The translations under genes were made by a program, and so were the position numbers. A stretch of 64,000 nt of DNA from Octopus vulgaris (taxonomy: Eukaryota), in NCBI GenBank assembly GCA_951406725.2, contig OX597818.1, positions 46,376,001 through 46,440,000 on the forward strand. Reading direction: 5' to 3'. The first letter of the stretch is position 1. Each line of letters opens with the position of its first letter. Under the pieces are notes generated by a model, which searched no databases, was not told where the DNA came from, and saw only the letters and a program-made list of their open reading frames with translations. Below are positions 1-49,035 of this stretch, one piece after another.

Positions 1-402
1 CGTTTAAACCGAAATTATCCGGAAATAACCGAAGTATTCCGTTTTTTCCATTTGTGAAAAGTTGATAAAGAAGTTATCGTCTGCTAAATACTTAGTTCAC
101 TTTTCTTTTCATGAAGACCACGTTTCAAGTCAACATTGAAAGTGAAGTAGCTTATTAATTTCGTTTTTATTATTTACAAAATTATAATCACTCATTCATC
201 TATCGCAAAGATAGAAATACAGATTTCTAAAGGGTATTTTGCTATCATTTAGTATCTTATCCCTTTTGGTGTTGTAATTTTCCGTCACGTTCTCTTCATA
301 GAACTATGTAAAGTTTGAACTGAAGATAAAGTCCCTTACTGAATTTATTGAAAAATATTCAACAATTACATTAATTTATTAATTCAGTCTTTTAATAAAG
401 TT

Positions 403-3400
403 ATGGGTGATGGTAACTGTATGGCCAGAGCTGTGTCACTCTTGCTCAAAAACAACAGAAATTACCAAATTCTTCGGGAATACATATGCAATAATTGGAA
501 GTATTTTCGTTCTTTTATTCCTAATAGTAAAATGCAGGAATACCAAACATACATGAGTAGGGATGGAACATACGGCGGTATTGTTGAATTAGCTATCATT
601 AGTGAATTGTACAATGTTGCAAAGGAAGGTTTTAGTATTATATAATGGCGAACTTGACAACGACCATTACGATGCTCTCTTTCCCATAAACAATCATGAG
701 CATTGAAAGAAATGAAGAAGGAAATAAAACATCACAAGACAGTGAAAAAGGCAAAAGAATGAGAATTCAAACACTAAAAATGAAGATCGTAAAAAAAAAA
801 AAACATTGGAAAAAATGAAGGAATATGAGAGGAGGACAAGAGAAAAAGAAAACGATAAAGATAGGGAAATAAGATTGCAGAGAAAGAAGGAAAATTACTG
901 AAATAAAAACATACAAGAAAATGAAACAAATAAAGAAATATGATTGCAGAAAAGGAGAGAAAAAGGTAGAATAAATAGAAAAGAAGAGAGTGTAAGTGAC
1001 TGAAAAATATGACTAAAAAGAAGAAAGCTTTTCAGAGAAAATCAGCAGAAAAAGTATAGACGATTTCAGAGGCAAGGTGTAGCATTTAATTATGTTCCTG
1101 ATTGTAATTATGCATCTGAAAAACTTGTCTCCCTGGGCTCTATGTGCAAAACATGTGAAAAGTGTGGTGCTAGGAAGTGGGACAAGGAATTATTAGGTAA
1201 GTGTTGTTCTAAAAGTGAAGTCCATTTACCAATAATTGAGCCTCCAGAACTTATAAAACATCTTTTGGGTGTCGCTTCAGAATCAAAATACTTTCTGAAA
1301 AATATTAGAGCATACAATTCTACTTTCCAAATAACATCATTTAGGGTAAAAATTATTAGGGAAAGTGGGTTTATGTCAACTTTTAAAGTGCAAGGAAATA
1401 TTTATCACAGAATTGGCTCTCTTAAGCCTTTACAGAATAAAGATCCACAATTTTTACAAATATATTTTATAGGTGACATTCAAAAGGAAGCACAGTATCA
1501 CATCAAGAATTGTCCAGGTACAAGATTAGAACTTATTTTTAAGCTGCGAGAAATGCATCACGAAAAGAATTCTTATGTGAGAAGCGTTCAGTATGCTTTT
1601 TTAGATGGTCATGGAAGTGTGGTGAAACCATCTAATAACGACTTTGCCAGTTGGAAAAGAGAGAGACAACTGAGTAGAATGTTTGAGAGATGATTTATTG
1701 ATACGTTGGCATGTGTCTGTGTGTGCATCATGTATACAGAATAATAGACAAGCTGTCATGAGAACAAAGTGCATGGATGTATGTGTGCGCTACATATTAG
1801 AACAAAAATGAGGAAGAAAGTGAAAGAGTCTAATATGAGAAGTTAGACGAATGTTTGTAGACACAAGAAAGAAAATACCAGTTTGTTGTCAATTGTACAC
1901 GGTAGTTGAAATACTCTATCAAGAAGAGACGGTGATGCAGAGCCAGTTGCAGTATGTGTCATATGAAGTTGTGGCTGTAATGCTGCTGCCTGGCTCACTT
2001 GTACAGGAGTTCTTGCAGGTTGTATATTTGCTGTTAACCATGAAGTAATTCACAAACAGTGCAATATTGGAACCTCTGCAAGTTGCTTGTTGAGCTGTAT
2101 ACCTAGAGACGATGTTGATGCCATTAAGAAGCTGGTGGTGACGAAATCGATGGTTGCCATTATGCTGTTGGGCAGGTGTTGTCGTCTGGCTCGCAGGTTG
2201 CATATTTGTTGTTGATTCATGGTGAAGTAATTCACTAACAGTGCTATGTTGAAACCTGGGTGTTTTGCTGTTGGACAGGTGTTGTCGTCTGGCATTGTTG
2301 CTGGAACTGGCTGTGTCTTGTGTAGTCAGTGGCTAGATCTTAAAAGGTCTGGAACCAAAGACTTCAAGATGAGGAGAAGGTGAGTTTTTATAATGAACAG
2401 TACGTTCAAAAGGGGTTGAGAAAAGGCTGTCTCACATAATCTTATTTAGGGGCTCTGATTGGTTTTATGCTGCATATTGGTGCGACAGAGTAAGAGACAA
2501 ATTGCACTAATACCAACCAATCAGGGTTGTGGACACAACAGGGTCCAAATAGCAGCCAAAGGTTATCTGTTATCTGCTACGTTCGAATGTATCTATATAT
2601 AATAAAAGGGAGAGAAATTTCACTTGAGTGTATGCTACACTTTAGAATATACTTCAACTGCAGACTTTCAAGTTGTCATTGATGCCAACAAAACACCAGC
2701 AGAAGAACATGTTCATTGATTCAATGTTCCTGAGTGTACTGAAATGGCTATTATTATGATTGGAGAACAATATTGAAATATTGTGACAATAGCATCATGT
2801 TCATAACTGAAACATATCATTCATATGATGCTTTACAATGTCCCTTGCTTTTTGCTAACAGAGAAGATGGATACCACTTTGGTACATCACAAGTTGGAGG
2901 AATCACTTCCAAAAGAACTATATCCTGTATGGATTATGTTCGTGAATGATTACATATACCAGGTTCAATTACAATGTCTTCACACGAAAATAGAATACAG
3001 TAATGAAATCTACAATGCTGCATTAATTGCCATTGAAGAGAAAGTTGTTTCTATGAAAGGGAATGAATTACATGGATATGGACTATCTCATACCAATCAT
3101 TCTAAACTCGATAGTTTAACAACATATCTATTAAGTGAGACTTCCTACGACATTGAAGACCTCTCAAGATATGTTAGTGAAAAATGAACTGAAATTGTTG
3201 CTTGAGCAAAAAGTATTCTACAATACTATACTAGAAAAGGTTTTTGATCAAATGGGACGGCTATTTTTTTTACCTTGATGCTTCTGCAGGCACTGGCAAA
3301 ACATTTGTCACAAAGCTTTTACTTGCCAAAGTGCAACAAGAGAAAAAAATGGCTTTGGCTGTTGCTTCTTCCAGGTATTGCTGCTACTTTACTTCCAGGA

Positions 3401-3440: not shown

Positions 3441-4875
3441 GTGGCAGCTCAAAGATAAAATTAGTGGGGGGTGCTGCTTCAGAAAAATTTTAGCTGTAGT
3501 TTAGAAAGAAACAAACATATAAAAAGAACATTTATACATAAACTTGATCAGTTTGTGCTTTAGCCACTGCCAGGTAGTGTGTTTAATTTGTTCATTGAAC
3601 ACCACTGTGAATTCTCCCCTGTTTTTCAAAAATTCCCCCTAAGTCACAAAATGAGGGGAGAAATATACCCTGTTTTTCAAATCCTGGCAGCAACACTGAA
3701 GCTGGAAGCAGGATAATAATCTAATTCAACACTTTATCACATTAAAGAATATAAACACGTTTGTAAGCACAACACACACGGAGTCAAAAAGAAACACTAT
3801 CTTTCACTTGGCACATGAAAATTTTTTTTCCACCAGAGTTCCAGACCCCAGTAATGAACTTATTTGCATACAGCCAATCAGAGCAGAGCCACCATTATCC
3901 TTTCTTCCTCTCTAGTCAGCACCATGCATTCCTTACTCTTTCCCTCTCTATTGGCAGACAACAATTCTCCGTCTACTGGCAGACTATCGGAAAAAATTTT
4001 CACTATCACTACAAGTACTACTGTCTCTCTAACTATCTGTTGGGCAAACAAATAAATATATGTAAATATTTCTTCCTTCTTGATGTTGATCCTTCAATGT
4101 CCAGTGGTTACTCCATCATTGGCACAATAATACACTTGCCCGAAATGAATTGCTGGAGTTATTTCATTTTTTTCCAGAAAAGTGCTTTTAAAAAGTTATA
4201 GAGGTTTAAAGTTTAATCATTTTCACTCAGTCAGGAAACAGGACTTGGAAGCTTCCATTTTGTGCATGACTTCACATTTTGTCAACATCCTGAAAATGCT
4301 TACATTTTTTATATCTTCTGTGAATTTTTCACATGTCCAGCTAGTTATGATAAATAGATCTATAATTTACTACTAATTATATAATAGTACTCAGCAAAAG
4401 AGGGGAAACCATTTTAGTCATTGTCTACTTGACCATAGAACATGTAGTACTGCTTTACATGGTACCAGTAGCTTGTCTCATCAGCCTGTGATAAGGTCCC
4501 TGACCTGACTCTCATCTTAATCTACAATTATTAAAAAAATTCAATTTGTAAAAAGCTTCTACTTAGGAATAATAATGTTAAAATTTTTTTTCTATTTACA
4601 AATGATAGTGTCATGTAAAAAGCACTGGTGTCATATAAAGAGCATCCAGTACACTCTGTAAAGGGGTTGGCATTAGTAAGGGTATACAGCTGTAAAAACT
4701 ATGCTAAGACAGACTATGGAATCTGGTGTGACTCCTGGCTTTGCCAGCTCTTGTCAAACTGTCCAACCCGTGCCAGAAAAGAAAATAGATGTTAAATGCA
4801 TAATGAATCAAATTATTATTGTTCCATTTCTATTATTGACTAATTTCTGAATTTCTTCTTTTTCAGGCTAGAAAC

Positions 4876-4917
4876 ATGGTTTATAGAGTTGGTAGATCTG
4901 CTGTTTACTTCTGTTGA
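4876..4917 (+). promoter_or_regulatory. Upstream ORF (MVYRVGRSAVYFC*) in the 5' UTR part of the first coding exon of the GDPD gene
   Basis: Acceptor tttcag|4867; aaacATGg in strong context; TGA at 4915-4917, 31 nt before the main ATG at 4949. Confidence 0.5.
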
Positions 4918-4948
4918 CTGCTTTTACTGTCTGTTCATTCTTGTTGCT

Positions 4949-5065
4949 ATGGTTACTCACATGCGATTTCAATATTACAAACACAATTATTGCCTTCTTT
5001 GCATAACTGGCTCCTTAGGATGTCAATGGCACCGTTATCGGCAGTCAGCATGCAACAGCCGAAAG
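4949..5065 (+). CDS. GDPD5: Six-TM glycerophosphodiester phosphodiesterase (GDPD5/GDE2-like), coding exon 1
   Basis: MVTHMRFQYYKHNYCLLCITGSLGCQWHRYRQSACNSRK resembles the GDPD5 N-terminus (QYY...CLSCLTG..GC.W.RY.RS); donor AAG|gtaaga, phase 0. Confidence 0.9.
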
Positions 5066-5435
5066 GTAAGAAACTAGGCATTTCACTCTAGAAACACTTA
5101 AATATCCTGTTTACTCCTAATTATCTGTCTTAATTCTCTTTGTGTCTTTTTCTTTTTTGTTTTAGTACCATTAAATTTTAAACCTTAAAAGAAAACAGTG
5201 AAAAGTCAGATTTTGATCGTTTTCTATGAAATTTATTTTTAAGAGATTCTGAATTATGGTAAAATCTTCAAGATTTTGTAATAAAATCATAAAAACTTCT
5301 ATTTTAATTGTAAAGGTAAGGCCATATACAGAGATGCCAATAGTAAGGTTAGGGTTGGCAATGAGTATAGTGAAGAATTCCAGGTAGAAGTAGGGGTCCA
5401 CCAAGGTTCAGCCCCCTCTTATTCATCATAGTCCT

Positions 5436-6935
5436 CCAGGCAATAACAGAGGAATTCAAGACAGGTTGCCCATGGGAGCTCCTCTATGCTTATGACCTGG
5501 CCCTCATAGCAGAATCACTGCCGGAACTAGAGAAGAAATTTCAGGTGTGGAAGCAAGGTTTAGAATCGAAGGGCCTTATAGACAATGTTGCAAAGACCAA
5601 AGTTCTAGTAAGTAGGAAGGCGAACACATCACATACCCCTTCAGATAGGTGACCCTGCTCAATCTGTAGAAAAGGTATAGGTAGAAACTCCATGGATGTA
5701 CCCAGTGTAAGCTATGGACATATAAGAGGTGCAGTAACATCAAAGGAAGATTAAATAGGAAGATAGCTTTCATAAGCGGCAGATGCACAGGGGTAATAAA
5801 CATTACAGATGCTCAGAAAACAGATTCAATCATATGCCAGGGGAAGAAACTAGAAGCAGTTGATAGCTTTCACTACCTAGGTGACCAAGTCTGTAGTGGG
5901 GGTGGATGTTCAGAGAATGTTACCACTAGAATAAGAATAGCCTGGGCAAAGTTCAGAAAGCTCTTACCCCTACTGGTGACAAAGGGTCTCTTGATCAGAG
6001 TGAAAGGTAGATTGTGTGATGCCCGTGTGTGAACTGACATGCTTCATGGCAGTGAAACATGAGCCATGACTGCTGAAGGCATGTGTAGGCTCAAAAGAAA
6101 TGAAGCTAGCACGATCTGCTGGATGTGTAATGTCAGTGTGCACACACGATAGAGTGTAAGCGCCCTGAGAGAAATGTTGGACATAAGAAGCATCAGATAT
6201 GACATGCAAGAAAGACATTTATGTTGGTATGGTCATGTACTATGGATGGATGAGGAGATCTGTGTGAAGAAATGCCACTACCAAACAGTGGGAAGAATCT
6301 GGGGTAGAGGAAGACCCAGGAAGACATGGGATGAGGTGGTGATGTATGACCTTTGAACATTGGGCCTCACAATGACAAAACACTGAGGCAATGACAAAAC
6401 ACTGAGACCTCTGGAGTTATGCTGTGACTGAGAAGACCCAGCAAATAAAGTGAGTTCACAGCTGTAACCTACACCAGTGTCGCATAACCAGCCCACTCAA
6501 AAGTACCTTGGATCATAGGGCAACATACCATGCTTGAGGAGACCTATTGAGTCAAGTACATCAAAACCAAAATCAAAAGGAATTTGTAGTTGTGATCCCC
6601 ATGCTGGTGGCACATAAAAAGCACCATCCGACCGTGGCTGATGCCAGCGCCCCCTTGACTGGCTTCCGTGCTGGTGGCACGTAAAAAGTACCAACCGATT
6701 GTGGTCGTTGCCAGCCCCCTCTGGCTCCTATACTGGTGGCACATAAAAAGCACTAAACTCTCGGAGTGGTTGGCATTAGGAAGAGCATTCAGCTGTAGAA
6801 ATACTGCCAGATCAGACTGGAGCCTGGTGCAGCCTCTAGGCTTCCCAGGCCCCAGTCAAACCATCCAACCCATACCAGCATGGAGAACGGACCTTAAACG
6901 ATGATGATGATGATGATGAGGAGGAGGAGGATGAT
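5436..6935 (+). mobile_element. 5'-truncated degenerate RTE-clade LINE (RT C-terminal half, 3' UTR, (GAT)n tail)
   Basis: LPWELLYAYDLALIAESLPELEKKFQVWKQGLESKGL; GSETW-like; LCWYGHVLWMDEE; RGRGRPRKTW; 3' UTR with repeated gctggtggcacataaaaagcac units ending in atgatgatg. Confidence 0.88.
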
Positions 6936-7344
6936 ATAGCGTCAAGGAGCACTGAAATATAACTGCAGCAGGCAAAAATTGCCCAGTTGTGGCATCACCT
7001 GCTGTTGGTATATTTGTTTTTTCTTTTTAAGAGACTATGACATGTTTATAAGAGATGCATTCTTGAGACAAATAATGCTGCAGTTTAGAAGACTTTCATC
7101 AGTAAATATGCTTTAAATATGATATAAAGATTGTTAAAAGCAAACTTTAGGTTAGTTAAAATATGTTTGTGACATATTTCAACTTCTAAAGGCAAATTCT
7201 CTGCAGTTACTATGGAGATAAATGTCTCTCAAAAGGTAAAAACACTGCTCATTGTCACCCTCTATCAGATTCCCAGACACATTGTTTCTAGCTCTTTAGT
7301 CATTATCAATGAAAAATACTAAAGAGAGGTAGCTCTGGGCAAAT

Positions 7345-7570
7345 TTAACCCTTTTGTTACCAACCCGGATGAAACCAGTTCGGGTTCTGAGTACATATGC
7401 CTTGTTTTCATAAGTTTTGAATTAAAATCTTCTACCAAACCTTAGTCACAATTTATGTTCCTAACACTAGCTGAATGATAACTAAGTTATTTTTCTAAAT
7501 TCTTTGTTACATTTAAAGTAATTGAAAGAAACACAGAGTATCTCAAAATAAATACAGTAATGAAAGGGAA
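7345..7570. mobile_element. piggyBac-type MITE (TTAACCCTTT..AAAGGG)
   Basis: Starts ttaacccttttgttacc and ends gtaatgaaaggg; body homologous to 17535-17740. Confidence 0.6.
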
Positions 7571-8744
7571 ACACAATCAACAACATTGACTAAGTTGTGC
7601 TATTGGACTGTCAGGTCAGGAGAAATTTAGCAGTATCAGCACCAAGCAGTGTTTTGGCATTAGCAAACTTTAGGTTAGCTAAAGTATGTCTGTGACATAT
7701 TGCTAAAAATAACTTGATTTGTAGGCTTATGTGATACTTTTTAAAATTCTATAAAATAGATGTCTAAGCTGGGGTTACAAATGTTTATAAGGCCTAACAT
7801 CACATCATATTGAAACTTGAAGTAAAATTTGTCCCTTTTTGTTTATTTGTAACCTTGTGAAGTTAGAATAAAAGTTATACATGAAATTAAATGGGTTGTT
7901 TATTAGAAAACTACTGTTTTTCATCATTACTATAATTTGTACCATATTTTAATTAGAGAATATAATTCCAAATTACCTAAGCATTACAAGAGAAAGAGGA
8001 AGAAATAAAAGTGTAAGAAAGAGATAATTTTACATCTGTCACAATGAGATTGTTTTTCTACTACAATGGCTTATAAAATATATATATAGAGAGAACTGAA
8101 TTTAATGCTAGTTATTCAAGGTTGATGTGATTTTAAAAAATTTATCCAGTGAGAATAACATATTAGCATTACAACTTCATGGCTTTTAATAAAAAAAAAA
8201 AGTGTTAAGGATTTGTCTTATAAAATAGATGACATATTTTTAAATGACAGTATACTTCGACAGCACTATCTCAACATATGCACTTGAGCCCACCACGTCT
8301 GTAACTGAAACCTTGTTTTTAACCTGGAGCTGGATATGTGGTTTATTTATTGAAAGAAAAGAAAAGAACAAAGAAAAACATCAAGTTTTTTTATTTTTTA
8401 TTTCTTTGATTTCCTCTTTTGAAATAGGTTCTTTATGTGTTTGACAGCCTTGGAAATTAATATTCACGTTGTGCCTCTAAATGTCTAAATGTGAAAAGAT
8501 CACTTGGCTCTGTTATTCTGTATATTATAGTTAAGGCTGGGCAAATGACATGCAGTATTATATACCATTTGATAGTTTTATCTATATGCTGTCGCAAACT
8601 TAATTGATGTAATAGCAAAGATATTTGATTTATTCACTTCCCCTTCCTACAACCATTAATTTTTTTAAACTTTACTTGTTTTGGCTTCATTATAAGGATT
8701 AGTAGTCTTTAGAAAACAGTTGTCTGATTCCTTAATCACAGTGC

Positions 8745-9235
8745 ACTCAACATTACACATTGTCACCTATATATACTTTGTGTGCAGTTTCAATCCCTGT
8801 AAACACTGCATTACACTCTGTCACTCATGTGTACAGTTTCACTCACTGTACACTCAATATTACCAACTCTATCAAATATCTGTAGTTTCAGTGCATGTAT
8901 CCTCAACATCACATATTTATGTGTACAGTTTCAATCCATGTACACTCCACATTACATACTGTCACTTATGTGTACTGTTCTTTAGTTGCTGTACATTCCA
9001 CATTACATTGTCACTTATATGTACAGTTTTTCAGTCACTGTACATTCCACATCACATTCTCTGTCATTTATGTGCACAGTTTTTTAGTTGCTGTACATTT
9101 CACATTACATTCTCTGTCACTTACATGTACAGTTTTTCAGTCATTGTACATTCCACATTACATACTCTGTCACTTATGTGTACAGTTTTTCTGTCACTGT
9201 ACACTCCACATTTACAGTTTCTCTCTCTGTCCCTT
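8745..9235. repeat. Minisatellite with a ~53-bp unit, about 9 copies
   Basis: Unit tgtacattccacattacattctctgtcacttatgtgtacagtttttcagtcac; unit starts at 9039, 9092, 9145 and 9198. Confidence 0.9.
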
Positions 9236-9485
9236 TTTATTTTTTTCTCTAGCTCACTTATAACCATTCCTATTTCTGTTTACAATTTCTCTACTTGTTC
9301 ATTTCTGGTTGCAGTTACCCTACCTTTATGTAGTGTTTCTTTCAATGTTCACCTTTGTTGTTAATTTCTTTTCTTCCATGTTTACCTTTGTTAGTTCTTT
9401 TGAATGTTCACATTTGTTGTTGGTTTCTTTAAATGCTCACTTTTTGAATCTGTTAAACCCTGCTTCCAATTTCTTTCTATACTTC

Positions 9486-9835
9486 TGTAACGAGTATGTG
9501 AAATGAGGTAAATGTGAAAATGGATATACGATGAAAAGAACTGGTAAGTGACGATTTATTCTGTTACAAAATACAATGATTGCCATACATGAAATAAAAC
9601 AGGTTATAACAAAGATGTATAAGAGAACTTTGTGGTTAGGCTGGACTGTTTATTTGCTAGACATAGTTGGCATACTGTTTGGTGGTATGTAGAGGCAGCC
9701 ATTGGTCTGTTGGTTGTGTGGTCTTCATACAGCAATGATGTAGGCAGGTGTCTGGTGTAGACGAAAGCGGAGACTGGCTGGTGTCAGATACATTGTTGCT
9801 GGAGACGAGTTGCATGTTGTCAGTGGCGTGTCCAA
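9486..9835 (-). mobile_element. Truncated LTR-like element related to the 1600-2639 insert
   Basis: TGTAAC terminus, gatttatt (minus-strand AATAAA), shared motifs cattgttgctgga..gtcagtggc; cut by the LINE at ~9840. Confidence 0.5.
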
Positions 9836-9839
9836 AGAA

Positions 9840-11220
9840 TTTCTTTATTTGCCTTTAGGGGCATACATAGAGGGGACAAAACAAGGACGGTCTTTACACA
9901 GGGCTGGGGTTACAATCATAAGGATAAAAATTGATTAAATCGGTATGTTAAATCGAAAAGTTGAATGAGAATAAAATGGTTATAATAAGCACAGTTCTTG
10001 GCTTTTTATTTAAGCTGCCGGCTTTTTCCTTTTTTTTACTTTGTTTTCCGTTCTTTTTTTTTTTCACCTTGACACAAGCACGGCCTCATTCAATCTCAGC
10101 TTCTTTATAACAGTTATCCATCTTTTCTTGAACACTCTTTGAGGCAGGCACTTTTTCTCCAGACAAATATTTCTTATAAGGTGATAGCTAAAATGACTTA
10201 CCAACCTGTGTCTGGGGACAAAGTTGCCTGTCTCAATTCCCCTTCTACATGTCATCCATACTGTGTGTTTCAGTATGGTTACTACACAAAAAAAAGGACA
10301 CCTCTCTTTCCTTATTAAAGGAAGAAGGTGGTACGATCTTAATGTTGGACTCAGTTGATAGCCATGCTCTTTCCGTTTCCGACATCAATTGTTTGATATA
10401 GGCTATCAGTCCTCCTCAATTCCTCACAATGTATGAAGACATGTGCAACAGTTTCACTGATGCGCACGCACCTCGGGCATGGGTGTGGGGTCAAAACCGT
10501 GCCTTGATAAACTCTCTTGAATTGGTAAGGCCAATTGCTACCACAGCTAAGCCTAGGATTTCTGGAAATTATCCAGGTACCTCAGTCCGAATGTCCTTCT
10601 GAACGGGTTGATTAGCTGGTTCCCATCAAAGCCCAGACCCTCCCCCAGGACTTTGTTGGACTTGTGATCTACTAACCCACTATAAAAATCCACAGTGGTA
10701 GCCCCGCTACTGGTACTACTCGCCCAGGAGAACAAAGTGAGTGCTTGTCTGCACTCGTTCTGCCAGTCACCCATTCTAGGTCTTCGCTTGATCCAAGCAC
10801 CTACACCCTGTAGGGATGTTAATTGCAGAAAAAAGAAGTTGATGTGCAGTGGCCACACCTGTTCACCATCCAGGTAGAGCCAGAGATGTCTCAGCCTCAG
10901 CACAAACTTGCGCATCATCAGCCAAGGCATCCCTAACCAACCCTTTTTATGGTTTCTGGCAGCTGATGGAGTGTCTCACTCATGGTGGTTTCCCTTCCAC
11001 AAGAAGCGGAAAAGGATCCATTCCAACTTGGCCAGTCACACACTGGGGCAAGGCACAACGGTTAGGCAGTAGGTTATCATAGATGCTATAAACACCTGTA
11101 CAACCTCCACCCTCTCTAACAAGGATAGCACCCTCCCATACTAGGTCTGGGTTATGGCCATCACCTTGTCTGTGACCTTGCTCCAGTTTTTCTCCATCTG
11201 GAGATCTGGTCCAAACTAGT
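9840..11220 (-). mobile_element. L1/Tx1-clade LINE 3' fragment (degenerate)
   Basis: Minus strand LRLRHLW..LDGE.VW.., C.RC...ET..H zinc knuckle remnant, F.KRW; 3' AATAAAG end at ~9845. Confidence 0.8.
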
Positions 11221-11308
11221 TTTTTTCTTTTTTATGCTAGACCATTGGTGTTAAAATTGATGTTATCAAATTAATATCCAATTTTTCACCCTCATTTTGA
11301 TTTTGATT

Positions 11309-11357
<49 letters not shown>

Positions 11358-11393
11358 GTGCTCAATTGTATCAAAGTATTAGTAATATTAAAG

Positions 11394-12095
11394 GACGACA
11401 CGACAGACAACTCTTCAGAAAGTAATTTATTGGAAGATGCTGACAAAGATTCAGAAAATCTTGCTTCAAATGAAAATGGTGATCATCAAAGTGAATCTGC
11501 ATCAGCTCAAGTTAATGAGAGTCCAGTGAGCAGTGACCAGAATTCTTCTGAGACTGTGGCAGAAGAAGAAAAAGAAGAAAAGAAAGAGAAACAAGTAAAA
11601 GTAAAGCTGATGTATTTGAACAATACTCAGCGCATTGTTGATGCATATTTATCTGATACAATTGGAGGATTTCGACAGTCACATTTTAGAAAAGAGCTTT
11701 CAGATAACAAAATGGTACACTTCATCTTCAATGGGAAAGCTCTTGGTAATGATACTTCCACATTGAGTTCATGTAACGTGAAGGGAAATTCCATTATCCA
11801 TTGTTTGATTACACCTTCCCTTGCTCGTCAAAATGAGGAATCGACATCAAATCAAGCCGGTGCTGCATTTGTGCCTCCCCCAATAAATGAGGGTAGACAA
11901 GAGACATTTATAGAGAGGGTTGTTTATCCATTCTTTATTATTCTCTTTGCTATTATTTGGTATCAACAATTTGCATTTGAAGACTCATTCATTTATAGTA
12001 GCATCATGTCTCTTCTTGGTGTTGTTCTCTTCCTGCTTGCCATGTCTTTGGCATTTTTTCGTGCCATTCGCTTCTGGGCAATTCAACAGATATAA
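11394..12095 (+). CDS. TMUB1: Transmembrane and ubiquitin-like domain protein (TMUB1/2-like) nested in GDPD intron 1; 5' end or start codon not in this exon
   Basis: Open for 245 codons from 11358; UBL VKLMYLNNTQRIV.AYLSDTIG.FR..HF...VHFIFNGK.L.ND..TL.S.NV..N.IIHCLI; two C-terminal TM helices (IIWYQQF...F...S..SL.G); acidic linker; TAA at 12093-12095. Confidence 0.85.
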   Translation, partial: DDTTDNSSESNLLEDADKDSENLASNENGDHQSESASAQVNESPVSSDQNSSETVAEEEKEEKKEKQVKVKLMYLNNTQRIVDAYLSDTIGGFRQSHFRKELSDNKMVHFIFNGKALGNDTSTLSSCNVKGNSIIHCLITPSLARQNEESTSNQAGAAFVPPPINEGRQETFIERVVYPFFIILFAIIWYQQFAFEDSFIYSSIMSLLGVVLFLLAMSLAFFRAIRFWAIQQI

Positions 12096-12744
12096 AGAAT
12101 TAAAAAAAAGATATACACACATTTAAGTGTGTGTGTATCACACACACATACATATATGTAAATGTACTTGCATACACACACATACACACACACATAAATG
12201 TAATGGTTTAGAATTTAAATGTATTTGTATGTGTATATACCAGTTATATACTAAAAATGTACATAGAGATGAAGAAAAGGAAACAATAGAATATATATGT
12301 TTGTGTGTTAGTATGTTTATGTGTGTCTGCATATTCATATGAGTTTATATATGTATGTGTGTCTACGTTTACATGCTTATGTATTTATATGCGTGTATGT
12401 GTATGCATTTCTACATACGTAGGTATATGTATTTCTGCATATGTATCCCTGTTATGTTATTGGAGACATACTTCTTTTGAGCACTAAGTACTCCTCGTCA
12501 CTCACATATATACAAACAGCTATTAGAGACTTAGAGATATTTAGAAGAATGTCTGCTCTTCTTTCACCTTGTTAAATTGTGTCACTAATTAGATCTGTTG
12601 AAATGTAATTAGTCATCACATTGTTGACTTTGTACTGATTTTCTTGTGTTCTTTCAGAATCAGCAACATTTGTGTGTGTATATGTATGAACCTGTCACAT
12701 CCATGGATATATATATATATATATGAACCTGTCACATCCATGTA

Positions 12745-12955
12745 TAAGCACCATCCGATCGTGGCTGTTGCCAGCCTCGCCTGGCCTCCATGCTGGTGGC
12801 ACGTAAAAAGCACCCACTCATGGTGTGGTTGGCGTTAGGAAGGGCATCCAGCTGTAGAAACATTGCCAGATCAGACTGGGCCTGGTGCAGCCTTCTGGCT
12901 TCCCAGACCCCAGTTGAACAGTCCAACCTTAAACGATGATGATGATGATGATGAT
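12745..12955 (+). repeat. Short RTE-3'UTR-derived repeat with (GAT)n tail; other copies at ~4610, 24150, 33680(-), 37750(-), 41790, 49170(-), 52280, 53070
   Basis: ggtggcacgtaaaaagcac..ttggcgttaggaagggcatccagctgtagaaac..ttaaacgatgatgat, matching 6590-6935. Confidence 0.85.
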
Positions 12956-13101
12956 ATTATTATTAATATTAGGAAATCAATATCAAATCTCCTCAGAATG
13001 ATATACACGTGTGAAAAATAATTGTTGTATTAAAAATATATAAATAAATAAATATAAATGTCAAGTGAACTTTAAAATTTGTCATTACCATTATTGTCAG
13101 T

Positions 13102-13570
13102 ATGGGCAGAACTTATGAATCATTTATAGTGAAGGAGAAATTAAATATGTTGAGTATGCATTTGAACATGACATAAGAGCTGCCGGAAGGCATTTTAATG
13201 TTAATGAAGCCAATGTTCGAAATTAGCATAAACTGTACAACAAACTTAAAACTGTGCCTAATCAACAGACAAAAATAAAAACATACAATCAAGCTTATCC
13301 ATATCATTACATTTTTTTCAGTCAGGAATATCCATATCACTATGTATGTCAATGGTGCTCCATTGCAATAGGAAGAAACTCCAAGCAATGTAAAATATGG
13401 CCTGGGCATGTTTATCAGCACGGACGTCAGACTTCAAAAAGTAAACTATTTAATGGTTTTAGTAAATTTATACAAAAAGACGTAAGCATTAGACTGTCTA
13501 GCATAAATAAAAGTCAACGTCATTATACATATTTAAGCCATTATTTTTTCTGTAAAAACCTATCCTGATA
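13102..13570 (+). mobile_element. pogo-like transposase remnant (Brinker-type HTH DNA-binding domain)
   Basis: MGRTYESF..KEKL / YVEYAFEHDIRAAGRHFNVNEANVRN* resembles BrkDBD (VVEYA..HG.RAAARHF.V.E.NVR.W); frameshifts and a stop. Confidence 0.7.
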
Positions 13571-13729
13571 TTAAATGAGTTAACTTCCAACATGAATGCT
13601 TGTGTTTTGTACATCTTTTTTCAACAAAAAAATTTCTAAAGAAATTCTGGAGACACTAAAGTTTATTTTAATTTTTACGAAAAAGTGCATAAATTACATG
13701 GGTTTTTATGGTATATATGTCAAGAGACA

Positions 13730-13785
<56 letters not shown>

Positions 13786-21270: not shown

Positions 21271-21369
21271 ATGATGTCTGCAGAAGAGAAGCCATCAGAA
21301 GTGTTGGCAGAGGTGAAGATAGCTCCTCCGCCAGCATCCTCCATGGCAAAGCATCATCATCTGACGACG
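21271..21369 (+). CDS. Candidate alternative first coding exon of the GDPD gene (MMSAEEKPSEVLAEVKIAPPPASSMAKHHHLTT)
   Basis: GC-richer non-repetitive island; ATG preceded by in-frame TAA; donor ACG|gtaaga is phase 0, compatible with exon 28846. Confidence 0.55.
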
Positions 21370-46763: not shown

Positions 46764-49035
46764 CATCATCATCATCATTGTTCGACCGTGGTCGAGACAA
46801 TGGAATTTACCATGTTGCGCCAGACTTCACGGTCCATCATAGCATTACGGAGGTCCTGTTGCTGGATGCCTGTATCCCTGGAGATTACATCAGGGTAGGA
46901 GAGAGTGCGCCCTCTGGTGTTGCGAGTAGATGGCTTCCAGAGGAGAAGAGTAGAAATTACTTCTTTTTCAGCTCTACAACAATGTCCAGCAAACTGGACT
47001 CTCCTACCTTTCACAAGAGATGACACAGGTGGTAATTTCCCATATATTTGCATTTTAGTTGGATGGCGCCTCCACGAGAGATTTTGAGCTCTCATAAGGA
47101 GGCGAGTGTAGGTTCCATCCAACCGCCTCTCAAGCTTTTTTGATAACGTCCAGGTTTCTGAGCCATATAGTAGGATTGGTTCGACTGTGGCTTTGAATAT
47201 TTCAAGTTTGAAGTCTCTACTTAGATTTGATGACCAGATCTTATGCATGTCATTACAGGCTGACCAGGCCATACCCTTTCTAGTTAGAAAGTCTTTTCCA
47301 GATGATGATATGTATGACCCAAGATATTTATAATCAGAAACCATATTTAAAGGTGCACTGTTGAGAGTGTGGATGATGCAATCACTGTTGGACAGGCACT
47401 TGTTTATGTATTCAGTTTTGGTCTCATTGAGGTAAAGACCTACACAATTTGAGGCTTGTTCAAGAGATTGTAAGAGAGACTGGGCATTGGAGAGAGAATC
47501 ACTGATAAGAGCGATGTCGTCAGCAAAGTCAGTGTCTGTCAAGTACTCAGCTGGGTGTCTGGAACTTCTTCTTGGTTTTATTTCAAAGCCCTTGCCAGAG
47601 ATGGTATCAACTGACATACGTAGCACATAATCAACAACAATGATGAAAAGAAATGGGGCGAGTGTGTCTCCCTGCAGTATTCCGGCCTCGATCGAGAAAG
47701 ATGATGTTTCTCCATCAGGGGTTAAGATGGTTGAAGACGTATCTGTGTAGAGGACCTTGATGGCAGAAATAATTTTGTCTGGTATCCCATAGAGCTTAAG
47801 GATTTCAAACATCTTGTACCTATCTACAGAATCGAACGCTTTAGAAAAGTCTACAAATACCATTGCAAGATCGCGATTAAATGCTTTTGATTCTTCAATA
47901 AGTCTGCGCAGGCATAGTATCTGGCTCAGCGTTGAGCGCCCATGTCTGAATCCATTTTGGTTCTTTCGGAGCAAAGGTTCAACAAAAAGGACAAGACGAT
48001 TTAGGATCAGTTTGTTGTACAGTTTTGCAGCAATTGACATTAGAGATATGCCCCTGTAGTTGGTGACGAGGGACAAATCGCCTTTTTTGGGTATTGGAAT
48101 GATTTGAGATTGGTGCCAAATCTCTGGAGCGACAAAGGTGGAAAGTGTGTGGTTGCAGAGGTTAAGCAAAAGCGTGTGAAATCTATCATCCTTCCAAATC
48201 ACAGCCGGAATGTTGTCGGGACCAAATGCTTTCGAGGCTTTTAGTTGCTTGGTGGCTGCTGTTAGTTCAAATATGGTAAAAGGGGAGGTGTTGATGTCCA
48301 GCGTGTCTGATATAGGCACACTTGGGAGAGTGGGATTATCAGGGATTTTGGCATTCTTCCCAAGGAGGTTTTTAAAATGGGTTGACCAATTTTCTAAACG
48401 CTTCTTAGCTGATCCCCCTTTAATTCTAATTGATGACCCAGAATTTTTTGCCTGATAGGTCTTTGATGGATTTCCAGGTGAGATGGTGTTTTTTACTAAT
48501 GTGCTCTTTCGATAGTTTACTAATTTTGCCATTGATAAATTCGACCTCGGCGTTCAAGTAAGCCTCATCAAGATTCTTCCTGGCAGCTATGAGTTGGATC
48601 TTCAGTGACTGGGATGGAGAACGGTGGTAAGCTAGTGATATAGACTTTAGATGGTTTCTGGCTTCGATGACATTTGGGGAATTAGAAGGTTTGCTCTGGC
48701 CCCTACTCTTCCTTTTGGGAAGAGTAGCCAGTGCAACTTCCTCTGTTGATTTGATGAGGCTGCTGTATACTTCCTCAATGTTCTCAGCATCTATTTCAGA
48801 AGTAGACAGAGATTGAAATTTGTTATAGACCTCGATAGTAAATTGTTTGGACATATCGGGGTTAGATAAGACTTCCTCCCAGTCGATCATTTTGATCGGG
48901 TGAGGCTTAGTTTTTTTGGATGAGCGAAGACTAAGCTTAACGGTAGCTGATACAATTCTGTGGTCAGAGCCGACAGAACTAAAGGAAGAGTAGGATCTCG
49001 AGTCCTTAACACTATTGCGCCATTTCTTTCGAAAT
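46764..49035 (-). mobile_element. Young 5'-truncated RTE/RTE-X-like LINE (APE C-terminus + RT), (TGA)n tail
   Basis: 585-aa ORF 46775-48532 with KAFGPDNIP, NYRGISL, QNGFR, FVDFSKAFDSV, GILQGDTLAP, DFADD, YKYLG, LYGSETW; upstream frame with SDHR; a single frameshift near 48430-48530. Confidence 0.95.

What the first reader, a model, noticed from the sequence alone, without database searches (positions are those of the whole stretch)
11358..12110. Intact, start-less TMUB-like ORF nested on the same strand in intron 1 of the GDPD gene: retrogene or chimeric terminal exon
Seen: 245 open codons among heavily decayed repeats, with UBL + 2 TM; no in-frame ATG until 11610, inside the UBL; ATTAAA plus an A8 run just after the stop; a possible phase-0 acceptor taaag|GAC at 11393/11394. 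Known: TMUB proteins normally start with an N-terminal TM segment, which I do not see here. From memory, vertebrate TMUB genes have an intron in the UBL that is absent here. Inference: a retro-derived copy kept open by selection must get its start from upstream. GDPD exon 1 ends in phase 0, so splicing 5065 to 11394 would give an in-frame GDPD(1-39)-TMUB fusion, making one promoter yield either a GPI-cleaving ectoenzyme or an ER UBL protein. The acceptor has a weak pyrimidine tract.
Basis: partly seen in the sequence, partly recalled or inferred. Interest (0 to 1): 0.75.

Follow-up and report, generated by a model that had tools for sequence, protein, structure and literature searches.

The report
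Truncated TMUB retrocopy with LINE tail
This is a shortened, intron-free DNA copy of an octopus housekeeping gene, joined to the tail of a jumping gene and sitting inside an intron of an unrelated gene; it is most likely a dead copy, not a second product of its host gene.

Summary
The ORF is real. It is a 5'-truncated processed copy (codons 98-331 plus ~650 nt of 3' UTR, 95-96% identical) of an intron-containing TMUB gene on contig C6; the parent's 2,363-nt intron is cleanly missing. The hexamer and A-run after the stop are inherited parent UTR, not a poly(A) tail. The copy runs directly into a ~210-nt LINE 3' tail. Together they split one repeat element, with ~53 nt of target deleted and no duplication, which best fits a single template-switch insertion; this scan reported a similar mRNA-LINE chimera elsewhere in this genome. 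A second species' DNA holds the copy, so it is no assembly artefact. Selection is not shown: 9 replacement versus 5-6 silent changes on the copy branch fit neutrality (P 0.2-0.35), while parent lineages are constrained (P 0.002). The chance of staying open is about 0.11. The 5065-to-11394 splice is in frame and a public gene model uses it, but that model also fuses histone, transposon-like and paralog pieces, and the acceptor is weak. No RNA of this species could be laid. Verdict: likely processed pseudogene; fusion exon about 10%.

The parts
4868..5065 (+). Host GDPD5-like gene (third of three tandem copies): upstream first coding exon, ATG at 4949, phase-0 donor; proposed fusion partner
11224..11357 (.). 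End of a high-copy repeat with a (TA)n tract; not part of the retro-insertion
11358..11393 (.). Left half of the repeat element that was the target; its last 4 nt are shared with the TMUB sequence (microhomology) and hold the proposed acceptor AG
11390..12095 (+). TMUB cDNA, parent codons 98-331 and stop: acidic linker, UBL, two TM segments; former exon joint at 11677/11678
12096..12745 (+). Copy of the parent 3' UTR, ending at the parent's (AT)n tract, with a 37-nt local duplication (12679/12716); no poly(A)
12746..12953 (+). 5'-truncated 3' tail of a non-LTR LINE family (reverse transcriptase upstream in L103), ending in (GAT)n, same orientation as the cDNA; left edge uncertain by a few nt
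12954..13059 (.). Right half of the target repeat; 45-54 nt found between the halves in intact copies are missing here
21271..21369 (+). Second first coding exon of the host GDPD, downstream of the copy, used by public model P0021
28846..28949 (+). Host GDPD exon 2, strong acceptor (rank 4 of 1260 AGs)

Best explanation
The ORF is a 5'-truncated, intron-less copy of the TMUB gene on C6, fused to a LINE 3' tail and inserted in a GDPD intron, and it is likely a non-functional processed pseudogene that has not yet picked up a stop. Shown: parentage, intron loss, truncation at codon 98, LINE tail at the 3' end, split target repeat with a deletion, presence in a second species' DNA. Inferred mechanism (about 70% given retro-origin): a LINE reverse transcriptase primed on its own RNA tail at a nick in the repeat, copied ~210 nt, switched template to TMUB mRNA at the (AU)n tract of its 3' UTR, stuttered over 37 nt, copied ~1.35 kb and joined the target through 4 nt of microhomology. 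This would explain the lack of poly(A) and of a target duplication. Inferred fate: neutral drift, spliced out with the host intron.
For: Parent with phase-2, 2,363-nt GT-AG intron; its spliced product equals P0001. Only two TMUB loci matched in the genome. DNA run X15 holds both the parent's exon-intron edge and a contig across the joint without intron that shares derived letters with the window copy. Seven of 11 loci examined run from the left half into the right half of the target repeat in one blast-supported piece. The tail lies downstream of RVT_1 frames in L103, and in 8 of 9 further family loci the tail follows LINE body sequence in the same orientation. Copy branch 9N:5-6S, P 0.21-0.35 under a neutral spectrum; parent lineages in UBL+TM 1N:6S, P 0.002. 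Since the two species' copies split: 4N:1S, P 0.008 under omega 0.1. Weak acceptor.
Against: No stop or frameshift: chance about 0.11 (0.58 no stop x 0.19 no frameshift; the indel rate comes from AT-rich intron and may be too high). Point estimate of omega is 0.4-0.5, and the data fit omega 0.5 as well as 1. Copies versus parents in UBL+TM differ only at Fisher P 0.085-0.13. If all UTR changes fell on the copy branch, 9 replacements would be a deficit (P 0.06). Public model P0008 uses the exact splice. For the one-event mechanism: no TSD brackets both pieces, the LINE family is very abundant, and the microhomology at the cDNA/LINE joint is seen in only 2 of 9 members and 0 of 9.
Confidence: 0.8

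Rival explanations
1. Chimeric retrogene: the copy serves as an alternative terminal exon of the host, giving a 272-aa GDPD(1-39)-TMUB(98-331) protein like the short mammalian TMUB1 isoform that lacks the N-terminal ERLIN-binding motif.
For: Same strand, phase 0 on both sides, open frame, kept in two species. P0008 ends in exactly this sequence. A short TMUB1 isoform exists in human (PMC11116810, passages). Silent rate on the copy branch (3.4-4.0%) exceeds the replacement rate (1.6%). About 9 kb upstream of the exon was duplicated with the gene, so a promoter may be present.
Against: P0008 also joins a histone H2B-like frame, a piece that also matches a repeat at window 355-621 and exons of paralog B over ~75 kb; neighbouring model P0013 fuses a nuclear-receptor-like N-terminus to paralog A, so these models over-join. 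Acceptor score -0.5 against a median of 4.6 for real ones. Replacements at conserved UBL/TM residues. The 39-aa piece has no TM segment or known domain to add. P0008 was the only one of 4 proteins found with that exon that carries a UBL.
Confidence: 0.1
2. Transcribed pseudogene: low-level cryptic splicing or premature polyadenylation inside the copy trims some upstream-promoter GDPD transcripts, with no selected protein.
For: Sense orientation inside a host intron; an in-frame AG and a poly(A)-like hexamer are present.
Against: Parent-type reads run on for 600 nt past that hexamer in organism A, so it is not the main poly(A) site there. The acceptor is weak. The host's other first exon bypasses the copy.
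Confidence: 0.08
3. Two events (a rival for the mechanism only): an ordinary poly(A)-primed retrocopy, later hit at its 3' end by a LINE fragment with a deletion that removed the rest of the UTR, the poly(A) and the TSD.
For: The LINE tail family is very common (2652 first-look candidates). L1-Tx1 families are active in this species (PMC13282606, passages).
Against: It needs a second insertion in the same orientation plus a deletion ending inside the same target repeat. No TSD flanks the LINE piece alone, although member L107 shows one. LINE piece and cDNA are of similar age (9-14 differences in 183 nt to nearest members).
Confidence: 0.3
4. Assembly artefact, or an ordinary nested TMUB gene with its own first exon.
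For: The region is repeat-rich.
Against: Independent DNA run X15 holds the intron-less form. No N-terminal TMUB match in the window or the 20 kb upstream.
Confidence: 0.02

Closest known systems
Processed pseudogenes / retrocopies (review PMC5470649, passages read)
   Same: Intron-less, 5'-truncated into the CDS, parent on another chromosome, no start or promoter of its own.
   Different: No poly(A) remnant and no target-site duplication; no disabling stop yet.
Template-switch chimeras of cellular RNA and LINE: U6/L1, U6/L2, U6/RTE (PMC4476161, passages) and mRNA/L1 (bioRxiv 10.1101/2025.02.02.635956, passages)
   Same: Cellular RNA copy at the 5' side, truncated LINE 3' end at the 3' side, same orientation, directly fused. 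PMC4476161 states that stringent LINE clades form U6 pseudogenes only as such chimeras.
   Different: The passenger is a spliced mRNA joined inside its 3' UTR, in a mollusc; the target carries a deletion instead of a TSD.
Chimeric retrogenes jingwei and TRIM5-cyclophilin A (named in PMC5470649, passages)
   Same: Retrocopy in the sense strand of a host gene with an in-frame splice route.
   Different: Those have shown transcripts and function; here neither is shown, and the host part would be 39 aa without a domain.
TMUB1/TMUB2 (HOPS); short isoform TMUB1-S (PMC11116810, passages)
   Same: UBL plus two C-terminal TM segments; 94% identical to O. vulgaris TMUB (P0001).
   Different: Lacks the N-terminal luminal motif, TM1 and a start codon upstream of the UBL.

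Membership tests
Processed retrocopy | Parent introns precisely absent | tested here: met
Processed retrocopy | Intron-containing parent at another locus | tested here: met
   C6
Processed retrocopy (L1 type) | 3' poly(A) remnant | tested here: not met
   A-run is parent UTR; copy ends at (AT)n then LINE tail
Processed retrocopy (L1 type) | Target-site duplication | tested here: not met
   45-54 nt of target deleted instead
Processed pseudogene | Disabling stop or frameshift | tested here: not met
   frame open, but 97 N-terminal codons and the start are missing
Processed pseudogene | Neutral evolution | tested here: inconclusive
   9N:5-6S fits omega 0.5-1, disfavours omega 0.2 or less
Processed pseudogene | No translated product | not testable with these tools
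   the raw RNA runs offered are of another species
RNA/LINE template-switch chimera | Cellular RNA copy fused 5' of a truncated LINE 3' end, same orientation | tested here: met
RNA/LINE template-switch chimera | Both parts bracketed by one TSD | tested here: not met
   both lie between the halves of one repeat, but with a deletion
RNA/LINE template-switch chimera | Both parts of the same age | tested here: inconclusive
   about 5-8% to nearest LINE members versus 3-4% cDNA to parent
RTE clade (for the LINE) | RT phylogeny within RTE | not tested
Chimeric retrogene | Sense, in-frame splice route from a host exon | tested here: met
Chimeric retrogene | Spliced chimeric transcript | not testable with these tools
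   no RNA of this species laid
Chimeric retrogene | Purifying selection on the retro part | tested here: inconclusive
   not detected; low power
TMUB protein | N-terminal luminal motif and TM1 | tested here: not met
   present in parent, absent in copy
TMUB protein | UBL and two C-terminal TM segments | tested here: met

The most novel reading that the evidence does not exclude
A LINE template switch created, in one step, a splice-ready TMUB exon inside a fast-evolving GDPD paralog, and the octopus now makes a GDPD(1-39)-TMUB fusion under relaxed selection: a young chimeric retrogene that re-creates the short TMUB isoform under a GDPD promoter and competes with the GDPD message.
Probability: 0.1. 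Interest if true: 0.6.

Novelty: new member of a known kind. Interest (0 to 1): 0.27.

Why it matters
It is a clear, datable example of how a messenger RNA can be retro-copied in an octopus without poly(A) priming, by riding on a LINE tail. With the earlier scan note it suggests a testable rule: octopus retrocopies should often end in LINE tails. It also flags public model CAI9722821.1 as a probable false fusion. If the splice were real it would be a young chimeric retrogene in a cephalopod; I saw none described in the listed rows of searches.

Tried and rejected
Target-site duplication: 11377-11390 and 12958-12971 match at 13 of 14 nt, but both stretches exist in intact copies of the target repeat, so rejected. 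Empty site from GDPD paralog A: its intron is collinear except 9489-13772, which does not align, so no use. 'SINE' label for 12746-12953: dropped once RT frames were found upstream in family members. Idea that the 4868-5065 exon is a decaying orphan: it has 4 replacement and 2 silent changes against paralog A, but the whole gene has dN/dS 0.74 and upstream DNA was co-duplicated, so not supported. Run search: no RNA holder listed; none of 24 rows held half the words; not used as evidence. X13 laid 0 contigs, no evidence. X22-X24 are of another species, so they cannot test the junction; used only to polarise changes. Pairwise dN/dS copy versus parent (0.33) mixes both branches and was set aside. 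Literature: nothing on octopus TMUB, octopus GDPD5 or a cephalopod retrocopy survey among listed rows (20 of 146; 15 of 227; 10 of 136); the lists were not read to the end. No structure or complex prediction was run; it would not bear on the question. Supplements were not opened.

Full report
Observation. Window 11358-12092 is open for 245 codons with the first ATG at 11610. It carries a Pfam ubiquitin domain (E 5.5e-9) and two hydrophobic segments. The best relative is Octopus vulgaris TMUB, P0001, 331 aa, 94% identical over codons 98-331. Orthologs P0005 (O. sinensis), P0006 (O. bimaculoides) and P0002 (Argonauta) served as outgroups.

Parent. The genome search gave two TMUB loci: the window and C6. 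On C6 the gene has two coding exons split by a 2,363-nt GT-AG intron in phase 2 of codon 193, inside the UBL; the spliced product equals P0001. The window copy matches the 3' half of the first of these exons (11390-11677, 96%) and the last exon with its UTR (to ~12724, 95%), with the intron cleanly gone. No match to the N-terminal 97 residues exists in the window or 20 kb upstream. The hexamer and A-run after the stop are in the parent's UTR, and parent-type RNA reads run about 600 nt past them.

Insertion anatomy. 11358-11393 and 12954-13059 are two halves of one repeat. In 7 of 11 loci examined both halves follow each other in order, 45-54 nt apart (two rows were one minisatellite locus, one lacked the right half, one matched it weakly). 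So the insert replaced about 53 nt and made no duplication. Four nucleotides at the 5' joint are shared by target and mRNA, and they supply the proposed acceptor AG. At the 3' side the UTR copy stops at the parent's (AT)n tract, repeats 37 nt and passes into 12746-12953, a truncated element ending in (GAT)n. I first called it a SINE. It is a LINE 3' end; 'RTE' is a recalled label. Cellular RNA plus LINE tail in one orientation is the known template-switch chimera (PMC4476161 and bioRxiv 10.1101/2025.02.02.635956, passages); stringent 3'-end recognition by non-L1 LINEs is reviewed in PMC3747384 (passages). One event is more economical than two; I put it at about 70%.

Reality and age. DNA run X15 holds the parent's exon-intron edge and also a 205-nt contig across the joint without intron, sharing the window copy's derived letters at 11696 and 11732. 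Its parent-type contig has the residue-142 letter of P0005, so it is probably a sister species. These contigs can be mosaics of copy and parent. O. vulgaris and O. sinensis split about 2.5 My ago and O. bimaculoides 13-34 My ago (PMC10700109, PMC13282606, passages). The copy keeps five residues of P0006 that the parent has since changed, so it is old within that range; I could not place it before or after the deeper split. It is absent from GDPD paralogs A and B, whose duplication is older (dS 0.14).

Selection. Copy and parent differ at 26 of 705 nt. RNA reads of organism A (X22, X23; letters match P0006) polarise them (full table; two sites in an uncovered stretch polarised by protein only). 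Copy branch: 9 replacements, 5 silent, one silent site ambiguous. With a spectrum measured on 6,131 intron columns, P(S at least observed) is 0.21-0.35; parent lineages in UBL+TM (1N:6S) give 0.002. Six of the nine fall in UBL or TM at positions identical in P0001, P0005 and P0006. The replacement rate is 1.6%; the UTR differs at 17 of 607 pairwise. Since the two species' copies diverged the count is 4N:1S in about 415 covered nt. Against this reading: omega 0.5 fits as well as 1; the copy-versus-parent contrast is not significant (Fisher P 0.085-0.13); an open frame has a chance of only about 0.11. Strong constraint is disfavoured; weak constraint is not excluded.

Host and splice. The host is the third of three tandem GDPD5-like genes and is intact: 13 coding exons, 601 aa, all GT-AG. 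It has an ortholog in O. bimaculoides (P0020). It has two first coding exons, at 4868-5065 and 21271-21369; public model P0021 uses the second, which bypasses the copy. The AG at 11393 scores -0.5 against a median of 4.6 (minimum -2.2) for 36 real acceptors, ranks 161 of 1260 AGs in the intron, and has two AGs within 22 nt upstream, seen in 0 of 36. Public model P0008 (CAI9722821.1) ends in exactly the proposed fusion, but begins with a histone H2B-like frame, a repeat-like piece and four exons of paralog B, and neighbour P0013 is also fused. One O. vulgaris annotation merged ab initio, protein and transcript evidence with EVM (PMC10700109, passages); whether this junction had read support I could not see.

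Expression. Not tested in this species. In organism A, 154, 131 and 100 reads were laid from X22, X24 and X23; at copy-derived sites all covering reads carried the non-copy letter except one of 39 at 11525 and one of 14 at 12075; loose ends at 11390 were the parent's upstream coding sequence; none lay on 11358-11383. Organism A may simply lack the copy.

Verdict. A real retrocopy with an informative origin, likely dead (0.8). A functional fusion exon (0.1) would resemble human TMUB1-S (PMC11116810, passages) and remains open until RNA of this species is examined. Interest 0.27.

Noticed in passing
G000:C5:46191874-46448621 (window 4949 to beyond its end is the third copy): Three tandem GDPD5-like genes. 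A is conserved; B has its upstream first exon inverted, two in-frame deletions and an early stop in the last exon; C is intact but fast-evolving (dN 0.103, dS 0.139 versus A) and has an O. bimaculoides ortholog.
   Followed up: partly
window 4868-5065, 11394-12092; G000:C5:46313539-46358336: Public models CAI9722821.1 (named histone H2B) and CAI9722817.1 look like false multi-gene fusions; both read the UTR part of the GDPD exon as coding.
   Followed up: partly
window 355-1693 +: Frames that look like a Helitron (label from recall); one piece matches P0008 residues 61-156, and related sequence lies between paralogs A and B.
   Followed up: no
window 46775-48553 -: 592-codon open frame with reverse-transcriptase-like motifs inside a host intron, probably a young LINE (not scanned).
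   Followed up: no
L096, L098: The target repeat occurs in both orientations a few hundred nt apart, suggesting long terminal inverted repeats of a MITE-like DNA element.
   Followed up: no
P0012: The O. sinensis GDPD5-like model mixes stretches like paralog A and like paralog C, hinting at gene conversion or mis-assembly.
   Followed up: no
G000:C5:46313539-46313955: Histone H2B-like frame between GDPD paralogs A and B.
   Followed up: no
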